DNA of 64,000 nucleotides, from sequence record PZ445444.1; one strand, written 5' to 3'. This DNA is from a phage. The position numbers were made by a program, and so were the translations under genes. The first letter of the stretch is position 1. The number at the start of each line of letters is the position of its first letter. Shown one piece after another: positions 18,746 to 37,431 of the stretch. Under the pieces are notes generated by a model. That model saw only the letters and a program-made list of their open reading frames with translations. It did not search any database and was not told the origin of the DNA.

Positions 18746-18773
18746 TTGACACGCTGCAAAATTTAAGTAAACT
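18746..18773 (+). promoter_or_regulatory. sigma70-like promoter followed by GC-hairpin leader
   Basis: TTGACA-N16-TAAACT, then ggcgggaa-tgt-ttcccgcc hairpin before the RBS. Confidence 0.5.
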
Positions 18774-27887: not shown

Positions 27888-27905
27888 TTTCTTAACTGAA
27901 TTATC

Positions 27906-27932
27906 AAGGGGCTTAAAGGCCCCTTTCTTTTT
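27906..27932 (+). terminator. intrinsic terminator closing the plus-strand block
   Basis: aaggggc-ttaaa-ggcccctt followed by tctttttgt. Confidence 0.7.
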
Positions 27933-27939
27933 GTCTGCT

Positions 27940-30350
27940 CTTCTCCTACCATAAACGGCCCTACCTGGCAAGTGGAATAATTGACTAGCCATCAATCCCA
28001 CATACTGTACAAATATACATTGAAAATAACTATTGCATAATTTTTCATTGTGTGGTAGCAGGGCCATTTTTACCCGTTTTCTCTCCCAAAAGTGCACGTA
28101 ATGCCGCTATTGCACAAATTTTAACCTGATGCACATCTCCAATATCTTGTCAACAACTAAAAATCTTTATAAGTCATACACTTACACAGCATCGAAAGCG
28201 TGTTCTACGCGAAAAATAGAGTATAACTATAGCCGCCAGATCTCAGAATTCACGTACGCACGCCATTCTATAGCCTGCAAAGTATTTATTCCAACCACAG
28301 AATAAAGGAATAGTCAATACCTGCATAAAATAATTATTCGTGTAAACTGCATAACATAAATCAGCTCAGGTGTCAACATTTTTCGTAAACAGCCCGAAAT
28401 TATCACGATGAGTTATCATAAACAGAGAAATCTTTAGTCGTCTAATGTTTACTGTACATTACTATACTGACTGGAATCATTAGATGACTAAGAGAAAGAT
28501 AAGAAATAATTAATAATGTAATTGTTTTACCTGTAACAATAAGGCAACTATGCAAACGAATGGCATGGCGCGACGGAGTCGCGACATAATATAAAAGCAG
28601 TAACCATCACCCCCGTGATAGTTTGTCTGCAAACTATTAATCAGATCATAGTTGCCTTGTATTTAGTTAATCATGACATAACAAGCAAGGCAACTATAGA
28701 TCTTATAATAGTTGCCCTGCTTTTATATTATGTCATGCTAATTATAATCAGTGCGATTATTGTCATGTATAATTATTGTCATGCAAACGAATGGCATGGC
28801 TGATTATCGGTGTGTAAACAGTCAATCATGTAAATGGTTAGCATGTGAACAATCAGGAATGTAAACAATCCAGTGTGTAAACTAATAGGTGTGTAAAAGT
28901 GTCATGTTGTGTCAGTTAGGTCACATTATGTCAGACAAGTTTTTCTCCTCTTTGTCAAGTGCTGCATGAAAAATTTACAATCTTGTATGGTAGCATTTTT
29001 GCGGCCCTGTTTACATTCAGGAGTGTATGTATAATCCTTGGTGTGTGGGCGTTTAGACGTCTAGACGGTCAGAAGTCTGCAGGTCAATATCTAATCTATT
29101 GGCTGCTAACTATATCCCCCACAAATAATAAGAAATATAATTGTTATGTGCGTAAACAGTAACCCATGTTATCAATCCCTGTATGTATCGCCAGTGGTGC
29201 GCATAATGGGTATTATGTTAAATTGCCCGTAATGATAACTATTCTCACAATGATAGGTATTCTCATTCACTCCCACAAGATAGGTTGCAAATGTTGTGCC
29301 ATTGTGTGAACGGCCTCACCTATTAATTTGCCTCACTGCCTCGATATTTGAGAATTGTTATAAGAATGAGAATGATTCCCATTTCGTCCGCCTAGCAGCA
29401 CTCCTGTAGGACAAGCACAAAATCGTGGCATAGCTGGACCTGTTCAGATATTTCTGGCTGGCTCTTCAGGTCTGTGTGGGAAAAGCCAACCCCCTCCGGC
29501 GGCGGGGAGGGTGTCAATTAAAAAATTTACGGGGTATATGAAGCGCTCTTCAGGTAAGGCATGTACTATGGGATGAAACCCTCTTCGGGCAATGATATTT
29601 GTGGGTGTGATATTTGCTGGAAAGCCAGATATGACGGGACTCCCGGCGGGGCAGGGGTAGTACAGACAGGGAAAATATGGGGATGTAGTTGGGTGAATTG
29701 ATCGGGCAGGTAGAGTATGGAATATGTTACAAGTATGTTAAATATGGAGGGTGAATATCTGCAGGATTTGTGTGTAAAATCAAAGACTTAAGTAGTGTTG
29801 TGGTATTTTCTATAAATAATTCAAGTTTAATAGGTAATATTTGTCTCTATCCACTTTGTGTGGTAAACAAATTCAAATGAGATTGGTTTACAAGTGTATA
29901 CATAATATACAAATTAAAGATACAAGAAACCCCCCTCCCCCTTCGGCTACCATTCACCTTTTCCTCTGACTGGTACTTAAACACTTATTCAGACTCTTCA
30001 GGTTATCACCCATATACCATATGGCAGTGACTGGTGTCCTCCGGCCCCTCTTTCGTCACCCGTCCGCTTCGCCATGCTAATGCCATAGCCAAATGTTCGG
30101 TTGTTCACCCTGTTCACTCAGGTGTATCTCCATACCCCTTCAAACCGAAGAGAACAGAAAACCCGAATTACTCGGTAAAAGAAAAGAGAAGAACTTAATT
30201 TTATCAGGATAGGCAAGAATGTCAAGGCATGACTGCTCACTAAACAAGCAAACAGTCATGTGTGGGAGGTAAGTGATTGTGGTGGTAGGAAATTTAGTTG
30301 AAAGATGTGTTATAGGTGCTTCCAGCACTTTAGCCTGGCAGCTAATTGTG
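27940..30350. repeat. 2.4 kb AT-rich non-coding region between convergent gene blocks
   Basis: No ORF with an RBS; 20-bp direct repeat atgcaaacgaatggcatggc (28551-28570 and 28781-28800); ggcaactata/tatagttgcc palindromes; six tgtRaac repeats (28810-28900); four ctcttcagg repeats (29460-30650). Confidence 0.6.
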
Positions 30351-34346: not shown

Positions 34347-34742
34347 TTACTGAAACAGTGCGGATAAATTACCTTCTGGTGGGAACTTATCTGCCAAAAA
34401 CGGTGTTAGCACAGTAGCCTTCTGAAGATCTGGGGTCCACTCGTTGTTCAGAACATCCCAGTAGTACGCAATGTTGCTGTGTGGGTGCCGCATTACGAAC
34501 TTTTTCCCTTCGTAGTCGTCTGAAACCTCTACAGAAGAAATAACAACAGAATCTTCAAGGGTTTCCTCGTAGAAAGATCCACCTTCAAATTTCCAACGAG
34601 ATGCAAGAGCTCCTGCCTTGAACGCTGCAGATAACGGACTGTCGGCAAGAACATACATTTCTTGCACTCTGTCGCTGCGATCTTTGCTTCTTACATTGTA
34701 TACAGTATCTGAGCTATACTCAACACGGTATAGGCTTACCAT
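34347..34742 (-). CDS. hypothetical protein, paralog family A (131 aa)
   Basis: Shares RHPHSNIAYYWDVLNNEWTP-type segment with 36549..36947 (VHPDSRVKHYWNARTKTWTP). Confidence 0.55.
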   Translation of the reverse strand: MVSLYRVEYSSDTVYNVRSKDRSDRVQEMYVLADSPLSAAFKAGALASRWKFEGGSFYEETLEDSVVISSVEVSDDYEGKKFVMRHPHSNIAYYWDVLNNEWTPDLQKATVLTPFLADKFPPEGNLSALFQ

Positions 34743-35101
34743 TACCGCACCTCCTCAATAACTTCCACATCTGAACCTACCACAAATGCAAAAGGACAGG
34801 TTTCATGAAAGATATCCGGATCGCCGCCAAGCTTGCTAACAATTTCTCCACCACTAATAAACACAAGCTCACCGATATTCATCAGATTGCTGAAATAGTA
34901 CCCATAATGATTAAAGAATGCAGCAGGGTCAGGTAGACTAGTAGCCTCAAGCACTACATCAGTTGAGGTTACTTTCTTATCATAACCTCTCGCCTTTTGA
35001 GATGCAAGATCTGCAGAATCCTCAGGCGACCGGAGATGCACAGGAATTGTTTCACCAATAAAGCGTACTTTCATATTATCACCCAACAACCATAGCTTCA
35101 A
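34742..35101 (-). CDS. small protein, paralog family B (start uncertain)
   Basis: Internal MKVRFIGE start is likely; conserved V.G(S/G)D motif region. Confidence 0.5.
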   Translation of the reverse strand: MKLWLLGDNMKVRFIGETIPVHLRSPEDSADLASQKARGYDKKVTSTDVVLEATSLPDPAAFFNHYGYYFSNLMNIGELVFISGGEIVSKLGGDPDIFHETCPFAFVVGSDVEVIEEVR

Positions 35102-35342
35102 AAGGGGTCATGAACGAATAAACGGCATCATCATCTGCTTCAGGGAATGCTCCCAAAGACTTCATGTCTGAGCCCTTGACAAATACAAGGTTTTGATCAA
35201 AAGCTTCTTGAGGATCAATCCGATACATATTTCGTAGAATATCGCCTACCTCCTCATCAAGAGGTGAGTATGCTGTGCACGTTTTTCCGATCAAGCTTTG
35301 AGAATCAGGGTATCCACCTGAAGTTTTAAAATAAACAATCAT
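35079..35342 (-). CDS. small protein, paralog family B (87 aa)
   Basis: YPDSQSLIGKT ... LVFVKGSDM pattern shared with the MKVK paralogs. Confidence 0.5.
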   Translation of the reverse strand: MIVYFKTSGGYPDSQSLIGKTCTAYSPLDEEVGDILRNMYRIDPQEAFDQNLVFVKGSDMKSLGAFPEADDDAVYSFMTPFEAMVVG

Positions 35343-35703: not shown

Positions 35704-35840
35704 TTAGAGGTCTCCTCAATTATTTGATATTAATAGCCGTAACCTAACACATTAACTACAACTGCGATTGCAAACATAATTTCAAAGCATGCAATCTCTA
35801 CATTTGGGACTAATTTCTTGATCACACCCATTGTAGCACC

Positions 35841-36158
35841 TCATTCTCTAAAGTCAATCTTTACTTTGCCTTTCCCCTTACCTTTCTTTCCACCGCATTT
35901 AGCCAGTTGACGTGCTGCAACATCTACCATACGGTCAGTTGCCTCGTAAGCATCACTGCCTTTAGCTTTGGCAATAACTTCTTTTCCAGAATTGTCAAAA
36001 ATGAACGCCATAACTTCCTGGTGATCATTTTCAACTTTTACACTCACACGTGCATAGTTGGCAGAGGGATGCAAACGCTCCAGCTTAGACATTTTGTGGG
36101 AAATGAAAGACACCATACCTTCAGTGATTTCTACGTTGCCAGTGATTTCAATTTGCAT
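35841..36158 (-). CDS. hpf: ribosome hibernation promoting factor / RaiA-family protein
   Basis: 105 aa; MQIEITGNVEITEGM...KLE...VKVE...G.EV.A.A.G.D.YEA.D..VD..ARQL.K aligns along its length with E. coli HPF (MQLNITGNNVEITEAL...); basic KGKGKGK tail. Confidence 0.75.
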   Translation of the reverse strand: MQIEITGNVEITEGMVSFISHKMSKLERLHPSANYARVSVKVENDHQEVMAFIFDNSGKEVIAKAKGSDAYEATDRMVDVAARQLAKCGGKKGKGKGKVKIDFRE

Positions 36159-36205
36159 AACGTGTTCCTTTTAAAGAAGAGGGAACCAAACCCTCTTTGA
36201 AAACA

Positions 36206-36234
36206 ATGATACTAAATCTGAAGCGTTGTGTCAA
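36206..36234 (-). promoter_or_regulatory. sigma70-like promoter for the hpf homolog
   Basis: Minus strand TTGACA-N17-TATCAT, followed by a 5' UTR hairpin agaggg-tttggtt-ccctct before the start codon. Confidence 0.55.
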
Positions 36235-36548: not shown

Positions 36549-36947
36549 TCAGTTTAGCTTTTCTTCAACAACCCCATAGCTCGGGACAGAGTCAAGAGCT
36601 TTCTGGTTTAAAAGTGGTGTAGCAGAATCTGCAAACGGTGTCCAAGTTTTTGTTCTGGCGTTCCAGTAATGCTTCACTCTGGAATCTGGATGCACTATAA
36701 CAAAAACTTTTTCACTTGTCAACACATTAATTTCTTCCACACCCCTGCTGATAATTTCTCCGTCATATCCCCCGGTCTGGTATCCTTCGTACCAGGTTCT
36801 TGCATAGGCATAGCCAGCCTGCCAGCATGCAGCCTCCTCCGAGGTGGAGACTACGTAGAAGTCTTTCTCAAATTCTGGGATACGCCCTTGCTTTACGCTC
36901 CAAGCTCCGCGAATTTTCATTGTAACTTTGAATAGTTTATTTTTCAC
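36549..36947 (-). CDS. hypothetical protein, paralog family A (132 aa)
   Basis: Paralog of 34347..34742. Confidence 0.55.
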   Translation of the reverse strand: MKNKLFKVTMKIRGAWSVKQGRIPEFEKDFYVVSTSEEAACWQAGYAYARTWYEGYQTGGYDGEIISRGVEEINVLTSEKVFVIVHPDSRVKHYWNARTKTWTPFADSATPLLNQKALDSVPSYGVVEEKLN

Positions 36948-36959
36948 AACGGTTACCCA

Positions 36960-37214
36960 TCACAGTTCTACAATATCTGCATCTGACCCTGCCCCAAAGG
37001 CATAATAGGACTCTTCCCCGAAATAATATTCCGGTGCACCAGCAGCGATCAGGTCTGATCCCAAAATGAATACCACGTTGTGGCCTACATAGCTGTGATT
37101 TTGCCGCACAGGATCATCCCACGGCAACCCTTCGAAGTATACCGCAGGGACGACCTTTCCTTTCAGGAAGGATTGCCCCAAGTAGACGTTAGAATCAAGA
37201 ATTTTAACCTTCAT
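36960..37214 (-). CDS. small protein, paralog family B (84 aa)
   Basis: MKVKILDS... with GSDLIAAGA motif. Confidence 0.55.
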   Translation of the reverse strand: MKVKILDSNVYLGQSFLKGKVVPAVYFEGLPWDDPVRQNHSYVGHNVVFILGSDLIAAGAPEYYFGEESYYAFGAGSDADIVEL

Positions 37215-37431
37215 GATCGTCCTCCACTATCTCTACATCCTCACCTAGGGCAAAGTTGTAGGTCCACTGACTGTCAAAGCATTCCTGAGATGCACCAGCG
37301 GCAATAAGATCTGCCCCTTTTATTTTTAAAAGGTCAGGGTAATCTTCGTTAGGGACAGCAGTAAACACTTTCCCTACTAAAGGCTCCTGACCAATATAGA
37401 AGCTTGAATCTAAAACTTTAACTTTCATCAA
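37204..37431 (-). CDS. small protein, paralog family B (75 aa)
   Basis: MMKVKVLDS... with GADLIAAGA motif; tandem to 36960..37214. Confidence 0.55.
   Translation of the reverse strand: MMKVKVLDSSFYIGQEPLVGKVFTAVPNEDYPDLLKIKGADLIAAGASQECFDSQWTYNFALGEDVEIVEDDHEG

What the first reader, a model, noticed from the sequence alone, without database searches (positions are those of the whole stretch)
35841..36234. Phage-encoded ribosome hibernation factor (HPF/RaiA) homolog with its own promoter and structured leader
The 105-aa product aligns from its first residue with bacterial HPF/RaiA (MQIEITGNVEITEGM versus E. coli MQLNITGNNVEITEAL, plus the ARQL.K helix) and adds a Lys/Gly-rich basic tail. It has a dedicated TTGACA-N17-TATCAT promoter and a terminator-like hairpin in the 5' UTR that could act as an attenuator. 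A phage-borne ribosome-silencing factor would be a direct means of host translation takeover or stabilisation of ribosomes during infection.
Basis: partly seen in the sequence, partly recalled or inferred. Interest (0 to 1): 0.8.

Follow-up and report, generated by a model that had tools for sequence, protein, structure and literature searches.

The report
Known rV5-phage ribosome hibernation factor homolog
This is a real phage copy of the bacterial ribosome-hibernation protein HPF, but it has been annotated in rV5-like coliphages since the rV5 GenBank record and was published and tested in 2019, when it did not co-purify with ribosomes, so its function remains open.

Summary
The ORF at 35841-36158 (minus strand, 105 aa) is real. 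It is a bona fide S30AE/HPF-family protein: Pfam PF02482 E=1.8e-12, 41% identity to E. coli HPF over residues 1-89, and an AlphaFold model that matches solved HPF structures (TM 0.87-0.94). The window is a Vequintavirus (rV5-like coliphage), 99.9% identical to phage JohannBauhin. The gene is annotated in most of the ~118 matching phage records, and its sigma70 promoter is already a feature (P144) in the rV5 GenBank record. Mizuno et al. 2019 described this protein, expressed it in E. coli, and found it in crude extract but not in salt-washed 70S/100S ribosomes.

The promoter claim holds: 11/12 match, and the -35 box is conserved in a lineage whose synonymous sites are saturated. The attenuator claim does not hold. 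The 7-bp hairpin is no better than shuffled sequence, has no U-tract, and is missing from two sister phage lineages.

New here:
- Three syntenic phage lineages carry the gene under strong purifying selection.
- 28 of 60 host-invariant positions are replaced in all three lineages, including the ribosome contacts T53, H55, H62, K80 and K89.

The most likely role is a YfiA-like, salt-labile occupant of vacant host ribosomes; this is inferred, not shown. Verdict: already known, low-moderate interest.

The parts
35841..36158 (-). CDS of the phage HPF homolog (105 aa plus stop); rV5 ORF144 / bas53_0151 equivalent; PHROG 12469
   Evidence: ORF list; PF02482 48.3 bits, TIGR00741 45.9 bits against cut-off 40.9; phrog_12469 E=2e-70; annotated 'ribosome hibernation factor' in JohannBauhin
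35892..36158 (-). [quoted passage not shown]
   Evidence: AF2 model with pLDDT 80-96 over residues 1-89; elements E2-7, H13-29, E33-43, E46-55, E60-67, H70-89. Foldseek: 4hei TMt 0.94, 2rql and 6h4n 0.87. dN/dS 0.05-0.13
35841..35891 (-). Basic Lys/Gly-rich C-terminal tail (residues 90-105) plus stop codon; predicted disordered; about 10 residues longer than host HPF
   Evidence: pLDDT below 50 for residues 90-105. The tail is basic but not sequence-conserved across the three phage lineages. Homopolymer-run frameshifts in APECc02 and Murica
36166..36170 (-). Shine-Dalgarno AAGGA, 7 nt upstream of the ATG; unpaired in the minimum-free-energy fold
   Evidence: Read from the sequence; fold
36177..36197 (-). 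Leader hairpin AAGAGGG-TTTGGTT-CCCTCTT, starting about 2-3 nt after the predicted transcription start
   Evidence: -9.9 kcal/mol, z = -1.0. Not called as a terminator. Lineage-specific. One of a set of promoter-proximal hairpins in this phage
36206..36234 (-). Sigma70-type promoter TTGACA-N17-TATCAT (equivalent to rV5 'P144'); predicted start near 36199-36198
   Evidence: Scan, 11/12. Enrichment of near-consensus sites. The block AAACTGTTGACACA is invariant in the P0004-type lineage. Annotated in DQ832317 and in the Gotham record
35730..35831 (-). 33-aa hydrophobic small ORF (phrog_15151) starting 10 nt after the HPF stop codon, with SD GAGGTG; probably co-transcribed with HPF
   Evidence: annotated as rV5 ORF145

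Best explanation
The feature is the already described HPF homolog of Vequintavirus (rV5-like) coliphages. It is a short-HPF-type S30AE protein, captured long ago from a gammaproteobacterial host and inherited vertically with its neighbours. It is kept under strong purifying selection. In the rV5-type lineage it is transcribed by host sigma70 RNA polymerase from a near-consensus promoter, inside the leftward block of small genes of unknown function.

Most likely mechanism (inferred, not shown): the protein still targets the 30S decoding channel (A/P-site region) of vacant host ribosomes, as HPF and YfiA do. It would anchor through the retained residues K25 (host K26), R83, K87 and K91. Its longer disordered basic tail would run toward the RMF/anti-SD region, as the YfiA tail does. 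On this reading it works as a YfiA-like 70S occupant and competitor of the host hibernation factors. It would park and shield idle ribosomes and keep them out of RMF/HPF 100S dimers. It would not act as a 100S promoter or a general translation shut-off.

Several host contact residues are replaced (T53, H55, H62, K80, K89). Binding is therefore expected to be weaker, salt-labile or conditional, which would reconcile this reading with the published failure to find the protein in salt-washed ribosomes.

The leader hairpin is not an attenuator. At most it is a generic 5'-proximal stem-loop of the kind that follows several promoters in this phage.
For: Family and fold:
- PF02482 and TIGR00741 score above their cut-offs. 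The HPF model (55.8 bits) scores far above the RaiA model (17.6 bits).
- 41% identity to E. coli HPF over residues 1-89.
- AF2 model pLDDT 83, with HPF structures as the top 36 Foldseek hits.

Identity as a known gene:
- 99.9% nucleotide identity to phage JohannBauhin; 118 phage records carry the gene.

Selection and age:
- dN/dS is 0.05-0.13 within the rV5 type. Between lineages pS is 0.79-0.84 (saturated) while pN is 0.12-0.25.
- Three lineages carry the gene in conserved synteny. HPF divergence (56-64% identity) is typical of the neighbouring genes.

Retained anchors: host K23, K26, R83 and K87 are kept in all three lineages, and the window protein also has K91. R83, K87 and K91 are among the four basic ribosome-contact residues shared by HPF and YfiA (preprint 10.1101/2025.10.07.680626).

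Tail: it is always longer than the host tail and always basic. The YfiA tail heads toward the RMF site.

Promoter.

Prior hypothesis: Mizuno et al. proposed that viral HPF might compete with cellular homologs and prevent ribosome dimers.
Against: - Mizuno et al. 2019 found rV5 HPF peptides only in crude extract. They found none in the 70S/100S fractions and saw no change in 100S. The authors list genuine loss of ribosome binding as one possible reason.
- 28 of 60 columns that are at least 90% conserved in 28 Enterobacterales HPFs are changed in all three phage lineages. These include the contact residues T53, H55, H62, K80 and K89.
- The protein fails the NCBIfam HPF equivalog cut-off (55.8 vs 125 bits).
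- The tail sequence is not conserved between lineages.
- No expression-timing or infection data were found.
Confidence: 0.45

Rival explanations
1. Neofunctionalised HPF fold: the protein no longer binds the ribosome in the canonical way. It uses its remodelled, phage-conserved surface on another target, such as a different RNA, a host factor that recognises HPF, or only a phage-modified ribosome.
For: It was absent from salt-washed ribosomes although it was expressed. Of the 28 host-invariant columns changed in all three phage lineages, 13 carry a residue that is itself identical in all three: R17V, F31H, V37A, Y38R, L41V, H55F, V56D, G58S, E66K, M70A, A72E, L77M, L81A. That pattern indicates a new constraint rather than decay. 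It scores below the HPF equivalog cut-off.
Against: The core anchors R83, K87, K26 and K23 and the whole fold are retained. The negative experiment used stringent salt washes and exponentially growing cells, and its authors flag both as caveats. No alternative partner is suggested by gene context, since all neighbours are of unknown function.
Confidence: 0.27
2. General host-translation shut-off factor: early expression blocks A/P sites and shuts down host protein synthesis.
For: [quoted passage not shown] The gene has a strong sigma70-type promoter that host RNA polymerase could use.
Against: The phage needs the same ribosomes, and an HPF-type factor offers no evident way to tell phage from host mRNA. 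Expression in E. coli did not alter ribosome profiles. Contact residues are weakened rather than strengthened.
Confidence: 0.1
3. Canonical HPF function: together with host RMF it promotes 100S dimers and stores ribosomes, for example during infection of starving cells.
For: It is closer to HPF than to RaiA by profile (55.8 vs 17.6 bits) and by structure.
Against: No effect on 100S was seen when it was expressed. Its extended tail resembles that of YfiA, whose tail runs toward the RMF site. The H55 contact to uS9 and K80 are lost.
Confidence: 0.1
4. The leader hairpin is a transcription attenuator or terminator that regulates HPF expression.
For: A 7-bp G+C-containing stem sits between the predicted transcription start and the SD.
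Against: Only CUUU follows the stem, and the terminator scan does not call it. z = -1.0. A G-to-A change in V18/Murica breaks a pair without compensation, and the fold falls to -7.0 kcal/mol. The hairpin is absent in the P0004-type and P0033-type lineages. Similar promoter-proximal hairpins without U-tracts follow several other promoters (8 of 47 against a 6% background, p=0.006).
Confidence: 0.05
5. Decaying passenger gene with no function in the phage.
For: Negative ribosome-binding result; frameshifted tails in two records.
Against: dN/dS is 0.05-0.13, and an intact ORF is retained across three lineages whose synonymous sites are saturated. The core is intact in all 118 matching records, each covering at least 80% of the query.
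Confidence: 0.03

Closest known systems
rV5 ORF144 / gp144-type 'sigma 54 modulation factor' = phage HPF (ABI79209; PHROG 12469), Mizuno et al. 2019 Nat Commun (PMC6375957)
   Same: 99% identical protein (a single G104R difference), same locus, same promoter (annotated P144). It is the same gene in a sister phage.
   Different: Nothing of substance. The window phage is closest to JohannBauhin (Bas53), and its protein is 100% identical to that of AlexBoehm, RudolfGeigy and PMBT16.
Enterobacterial short HPF (YhbH; PDB 2rql, 4v8h, 6h4n; NCBIfam PRK10470)
   Same: Same fold and length class. Colinear from residue 1. 37-45% identity. Retains K23, K26, R83, K87 and the D69/Y71/D75/D79 framework.
   Different: Below the equivalog cut-off (55.8 vs 125 bits). 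28 of 60 host-invariant positions are replaced in all phage lineages, including T53, H55, H62, K80 and K89. The window's form has a one-residue deletion in the beta1-alpha1 loop (V18 and Murica keep GNNVEIT, as the host does), and all phage forms have a one-residue insertion in the beta3-beta4 loop. The tail is about 10 residues longer, Lys/Gly-rich and disordered. The protein was not recovered with salt-washed ribosomes.
YfiA / RaiA / protein Y (PDB 4v8i, 1n3g; NCBIfam PRK10324)
   Same: Same fold and same 30S site. It has a C-terminal extension beyond the HPF length that heads toward the RMF site and goes with 70S rather than 100S hibernation. This is the best functional analogy for a tail-bearing HPF fold.
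   Different: Sequence affinity is much weaker (17.6 bits vs a 158-bit cut-off; about 21-24% identity in structure alignments). The phage tail shows no detectable sequence similarity to it.
Other phage-borne S30AE genes (Cronobacter jumbo phage GAP32, Xanthomonas jumbo phage XaC1; PHROG 8990)
   Same: S30AE-family genes carried by large myoviruses.
   Different: Apparently independent acquisitions. tblastn with the window protein does not reach them at E<1e-5, and the match to phrog_8990 is only E=1.5e-6.

Membership tests
Ribosomal_S30AE / HPF-YfiA superfamily (Pfam PF02482, TIGR00741) | Profile match above the curated cut-off over the whole domain | tested here: met
   PF02482 48.3 bits vs 23.7, residues 3-88 on profile positions 1-83 of 88. 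TIGR00741 45.9 bits vs 40.9.
Ribosomal_S30AE / HPF-YfiA superfamily (Pfam PF02482, TIGR00741) | [quoted passage not shown] | tested here: met
   AF2 pLDDT 83.2, pTM 0.73, elements E-H-E-E-E-H. Foldseek top hits are HPF, YfiA and pY structures, TMt up to 0.94 and rmsd 0.9-1.0 A.
Enterobacterial HPF equivalog (NCBIfam NF007780 / PRK10470) | Score at or above the 125-bit equivalog cut-off | tested here: not met
   55.8 bits. 37-45% identity to 28 Enterobacterales HPFs that are 73-98% identical to each other.
Enterobacterial HPF equivalog (NCBIfam NF007780 / PRK10470) | Ribosome-contact residues: K80, R83, K87, K89, K91 on alpha2; T53 and H62 to m2G966; H55/E60 to the uS9 C-terminus; K26 and Q29 near m3U1498 (10.1101/2025.10.07.680626) | tested here: inconclusive
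   Kept: K26, R83, K87, K91 (window). Replaced in all three phage lineages: T53 to F/R, H55 to F, H62 to I/M/L (a hydrophobic residue also occurs in P. aeruginosa), K80 to V/T/I, K89 to G/S/N. Q29 becomes R.
Enterobacterial HPF equivalog (NCBIfam NF007780 / PRK10470) | Binds 70S ribosomes and, with RMF, stabilises 100S dimers | not testable with these tools
   The published test of the 99%-identical rV5 protein found no peptides in 70S/100S fractions after a high-salt preparation and no change in 100S (PMC6375957).
RaiA/YfiA equivalog (NCBIfam NF007654 / PRK10324) | Score at or above the 158-bit cut-off | tested here: not met
   17.6 bits. GenBank names such as 'ribosome-associated translation inhibitor RaiA' are generic PGAP family names.
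Sigma70-dependent promoter | -35 and -10 hexamers with 16-18 nt spacing close to consensus, conserved in relatives | tested here: met
   TTGACA-17-TATCAT, 11/12. 18 such sites against 1.4 expected. The -35 block is invariant in the P0004-type lineage despite saturated divergence. The site is absent in the P0033-type lineage. No transcription-start mapping is available.
Intrinsic terminator / transcription attenuator | Stable G+C-rich stem immediately followed by a U-tract; an alternative anti-terminator structure or conservation across relatives | tested here: not met
   Not called by the scan. A 7-bp stem, -9.9 kcal/mol, z = -1.0, followed by CUUUAAAA. No compensatory change in V18/Murica, and absent in two lineages.

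The most novel reading that the evidence does not exclude
The phage protein is not a plain HPF copy but a re-tooled HPF fold. About half of the positions that are invariant in host HPFs, including five ribosome-contact residues, have been replaced, many by residues that are themselves conserved across three anciently diverged phage lineages. It may therefore bind the ribosome in a different mode, or only in a particular state: for example as an anti-hibernation decoy that blocks RMF/HPF/YfiA, or as a shield of the decoding centre against ribosome-targeting host toxins. Alternatively it may bind a non-ribosomal partner. Either case would explain the published negative ribosome-binding result.
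Probability: 0.27. Interest if true: 0.6.

Novelty: already known. Interest (0 to 1): 0.27.

Why it matters
Phage genes that touch the ribosome directly are rare. In the 50,697-record phage collection, HPF-like genes are almost confined to rV5-like coliphages, with a few jumbo phages besides. The one functional test of this protein was negative, so what a lytic phage gains from a hibernation-factor fold is still unknown. Knowing whether it protects, parks or re-activates ribosomes would bear on how phages infect slow-growing or starved gut E. coli. The existence, homology and promoter of the gene are not news. The only added value here is the evidence for long-term purifying selection on a remodelled contact surface, which gives concrete mutants to test.

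Tried and rejected
- Word-indexed protein search with the single sequence found only 5 near relatives. The exhaustive representative search found no cellular relative closer than 45% identity. Its second hit, P0006, is a spurious PPC-repeat protein.
- An IMG/VR scan with a phage-lineage profile gave only 2 loci, both rV5-type.
- Rfam found no family in the window, so no known leader or riboswitch. ARAGORN found no tRNA in the window.
- Pfam and PHROGs on ten neighbouring ORFs found no known function, so there is no operon logic to exploit.
- Literature searches for a later functional study (Vequintavirus plus ribosome hibernation; phage-encoded HPF; viral HPF; Vequintavirus transcriptomics) found nothing beyond Mizuno 2019 and Mathieu 2020.
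- I considered that the 33-aa downstream ORF might be an RMF-like partner. I rejected this because it is hydrophobic and is not called in the sister lineages.
- I considered that the hairpin might terminate the upstream gene. I rejected this because it lies downstream of the promoter and lacks a U-tract.
- I considered a recent transfer from E. coli, as Mizuno et al. suggested. That fits poorly with 37-45% identity to a host family that is 73-98% self-identical, and with the gene's presence in three lineages that are saturated at synonymous sites.

Full report
**1. Observation**

- It matches Pfam PF02482 (Ribosomal_S30AE) at E=1.8e-12: 48.3 bits against a gathering score of 23.7, covering profile positions 1-83 of 88.
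- It passes TIGR00741 (HPF/YfiA family), 45.9 bits vs 40.9.
- It scores 55.8 bits on the enterobacterial HPF equivalog model (cut-off 125) and only 17.6 bits on the RaiA model (cut-off 158).
- Against PDB sequences the best matches are E. coli HPF (2rql, 4v8h, 6h4n; E about 5e-12), aligned colinearly over residues 1-89.
- An AlphaFold2 model built on a 32-sequence alignment has mean pLDDT 83 and the beta-alpha-beta-beta-beta-alpha order. Residues 90-105 are disordered.
- Foldseek returns only hibernation factors as its top 36 hits. V. cholerae HPF 4hei gives TMt 0.94 and rmsd 0.9 A; E. coli HPF gives 0.87.

The homology claim is therefore fully confirmed.

**2. What the window is, and prior knowledge**

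The 2-kb region around the gene is 99.9% identical to Escherichia phage JohannBauhin (Bas53; Vequintavirus). It is at least 90% identical to 118 phage records, essentially all of them rV5-like. tblastn with the protein finds the same 118 records plus one bacterial genome.

The gene is variously annotated as 'ribosome hibernation factor', 'sigma 54 modulation factor', 'hpf' or 'RaiA'. The original rV5 record DQ832317 annotates it as ORF 144. PhagePromoter also predicts it in phage Gotham.

Mizuno et al. 2019 (PMC6375957) list rV5 HPF (ABI79209, 105 aa) among virus-encoded ribosomal proteins. They expressed it from pBAD24 in E. coli. They detected its peptides in crude extract but none in sucrose-gradient 70S/100S fractions prepared at high salt, and they saw no effect on 100S. 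They state that growth phase, salt washes or genuine loss of binding could each explain this. Mathieu et al. 2020 note the gene again in five new rV5 isolates. I found no later functional study in the searchable library. The finding is therefore already known.

**3. Promoter**

TTGACA-N17-TATCAT lies at 36234..36206 and is an 11/12 match. Sites at or above 11/12 are strongly enriched in the window: 18 observed against 1.4 +/- 1.1 in dinucleotide shuffles.

The block AAACTGTTGACACA is invariant in a sister phage lineage (P0004-type) whose coding sequence is saturated at synonymous sites. That argues the promoter is functional. A third lineage (P0033-type) has only a 33-nt intergenic gap with no promoter, so there the gene is presumably read through from upstream. 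The 'dedicated promoter' is thus real but lineage-specific.

**4. Leader hairpin**

The stem-loop AAGAGGG/TTTGGTT/CCCTCTT (36197..36177) folds at -9.9 kcal/mol.
- 29 of 200 shuffles fold as well (z = -1.0).
- It is followed by CUUUAAAA rather than a U-tract, and the terminator scan does not call it.
- It leaves the SD (AAGGA, 36170..36166) unpaired.
- In V18 and Murica a G-to-A change breaks a pair without compensation, and the fold falls to -7.0 kcal/mol.
- In both sister lineages the hairpin is absent and the leader is short.

Short G+C-rich hairpins without U-tracts, starting a few nucleotides after the predicted start, also follow several other near-consensus promoters in the window. Examples are at 18746, 21291, 26641, 25121, 3768 and 54989. 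Eight of 47 promoters have a fold of -8 kcal/mol or better, against 6% of random 32-mers (binomial p=0.006).

The attenuator idea is therefore not supported. If the hairpin does anything, a generic 5'-proximal stem-loop (for example an mRNA 5'-end stabiliser; this is my inference from general E. coli mRNA-decay knowledge) is more plausible.

**5. Evolution**

Besides the rV5 type, two more phage lineages carry the gene at the syntenic position. They are known only from assemblies: P0004-type (64% identity, contigs up to 137 kb) and P0033-type (55-56% identity). Neighbouring genes are 28-89% identical between the lineages, so HPF diverged along with the genome.

Selection on the core domain is strongly purifying. 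Within the rV5 type, dN/dS is 0.05-0.13. Between lineages pS is 0.79-0.84 (saturated) while pN is 0.12-0.25.

The exhaustive representative search finds no cellular protein above 45% identity. The 28 Enterobacterales HPFs are 73-98% identical to each other (mean 82%) but only 31-45% identical to the phage proteins. I read this as an old capture followed by a shift in constraints, not a recent transfer.

**6. Remodelled surface**

Sixty alignment columns are at least 90% conserved in host HPFs. Of these, 22 are kept in all three phage lineages, including K23, K26, R83 and the D69/Y71/D75/D79 framework; K87 is also invariant across the alignment.

Twenty-eight columns are changed in all three lineages. 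Thirteen of those carry a residue that is itself identical in all three: R17V, F31H, V37A, Y38R, L41V, H55F, V56D, G58S, E66K, M70A, A72E, L77M, L81A.

A 2025 cryo-EM preprint on Gram-negative hibernating ribosomes lists the following as conserved HPF contacts:
- K80, R83, K87, K89 and K91 on helix alpha2;
- T53 and H62, which contact m2G966;
- H55/E60, which contact the uS9 C-terminus;
- K26 and Q29, near m3U1498.

The phage protein keeps K26, R83, K87 and K91. It has lost K80, K89, T53 and H55, and it has a hydrophobic residue at position 62. This is compatible with weaker or altered ribosome binding and with the published negative result, but it does not prove either.

**7. Tail**

All phage forms extend 4-10 residues beyond the host's 95 aa, and all extensions are basic. 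Their sequences differ: GGKKGKGKGKVKIDFRE, SKSKGIDKRTAKWDY and NLTKSRRASKQEITLY. The altered tails in APECc02 and Murica come from one-base indels in a GGGG/AAA run, while the downstream DNA is unchanged. These are either recent changes or sequencing errors.

The YfiA tail is reported to run toward the RMF site. That is the basis for my YfiA-like analogy, which remains an inference.

**8. Context**

The gene lies in a roughly 37-kb leftward block. The block begins with RNA ligase, sirtuin, DNA ligase, endolysin, the Nrd genes, ThyA, PhoH and a ClpP-like protease. It ends in about 50 small ORFs of unknown function. Ten neighbours have no Pfam family and fall only in PHROGs of unknown function. 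A 33-aa hydrophobic ORF starts 10 nt after the HPF stop codon.

**9. Verdict**

- Best mechanism, confidence about 0.45: a salt-labile or conditional, YfiA-like occupant of the decoding channel of vacant host ribosomes. It would compete with host hibernation factors and park or shield ribosomes.
- Main rival, confidence about 0.27: a neofunctionalised HPF fold with a different binding mode or partner.
- Novelty: already known. Interest: low to moderate.

Noticed in passing
window 27,900-30,300: About 2.4 kb with no ORF longer than 71 aa, unannotated in the JohannBauhin record. It sits where the rightward and leftward gene blocks converge. It is A+T-rich (GC 0.335-0.38, against about 0.43-0.46 nearby). 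It carries scattered repeats: an ATAGTTGCC(C/T)TG motif in both orientations at 28534-28734, an exact 20-nt direct repeat at 28550 and 28781, and GTGTGTAAAC three times. It may be an origin or a regulatory region.
   Followed up: partly
window + strand 922, 3768, 18746, 19419, 21291, 25121, 26641; - strand 54989, 36234: Near-consensus sigma70 promoters are often followed, a few nucleotides after the predicted start, by short G+C-rich hairpins without U-tracts, often preceded by CAAAG. Examples are GGCGGGAATGTTTCCCGCC and GGCGGGAAAACTTCCCGCC. Eight of 47 promoters have a fold of -8 kcal/mol or better, against a 6% background (p=0.006). This looks like a recurrent promoter-proximal stem-loop class of unknown role.
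   Followed up: partly
window 34347-34742 and 36549-36947; 36960-37214, 37204-37431, 35079-35342: The HPF gene is flanked by paralogous small ORFs. Two phrog_7379 members (about 131 aa) lie one on each side, and there are two or three phrog_5009 members. The upstream phrog_7379 copy has no syntenic counterpart in the two sister lineages; its only match there is the copy downstream of HPF.
   Followed up: partly
window 35730-35831 (-): A 33-aa hydrophobic ORF (phrog_15151; rV5 ORF145) starts 10 nt after the HPF stop codon, with SD GAGGTG. A promoter-like site (TTGACT-16-TACAAT, 35857-35830) overlaps the end of the HPF gene and the small ORF's start codon.
   Followed up: no
phage records MG0656xx: Eighteen GenBank records named 'Campylobacter phage', with host C. 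jejuni, are 96-99% identical to rV5-like coliphages across this region. They are probably mislabelled or contaminant genomes.
   Followed up: no
phage records MT884008-11, OR062525/28/30: Several records name the HPF gene 'ATP-dependent protease La type I', an evident annotation error. APECc02 labels the neighbouring 89-aa ORF 'sigma 54 modulation factor' although that ORF has no S30AE match.
   Followed up: yes
JohannBauhin record 129,427-135,200 (outside the window; L013): The same phage also encodes RNA ligase, polynucleotide kinase and a phosphoesterase (a tRNA-repair-type set) and six tRNAs. HPF would therefore be one of several genes touching the translation apparatus.
   Followed up: no
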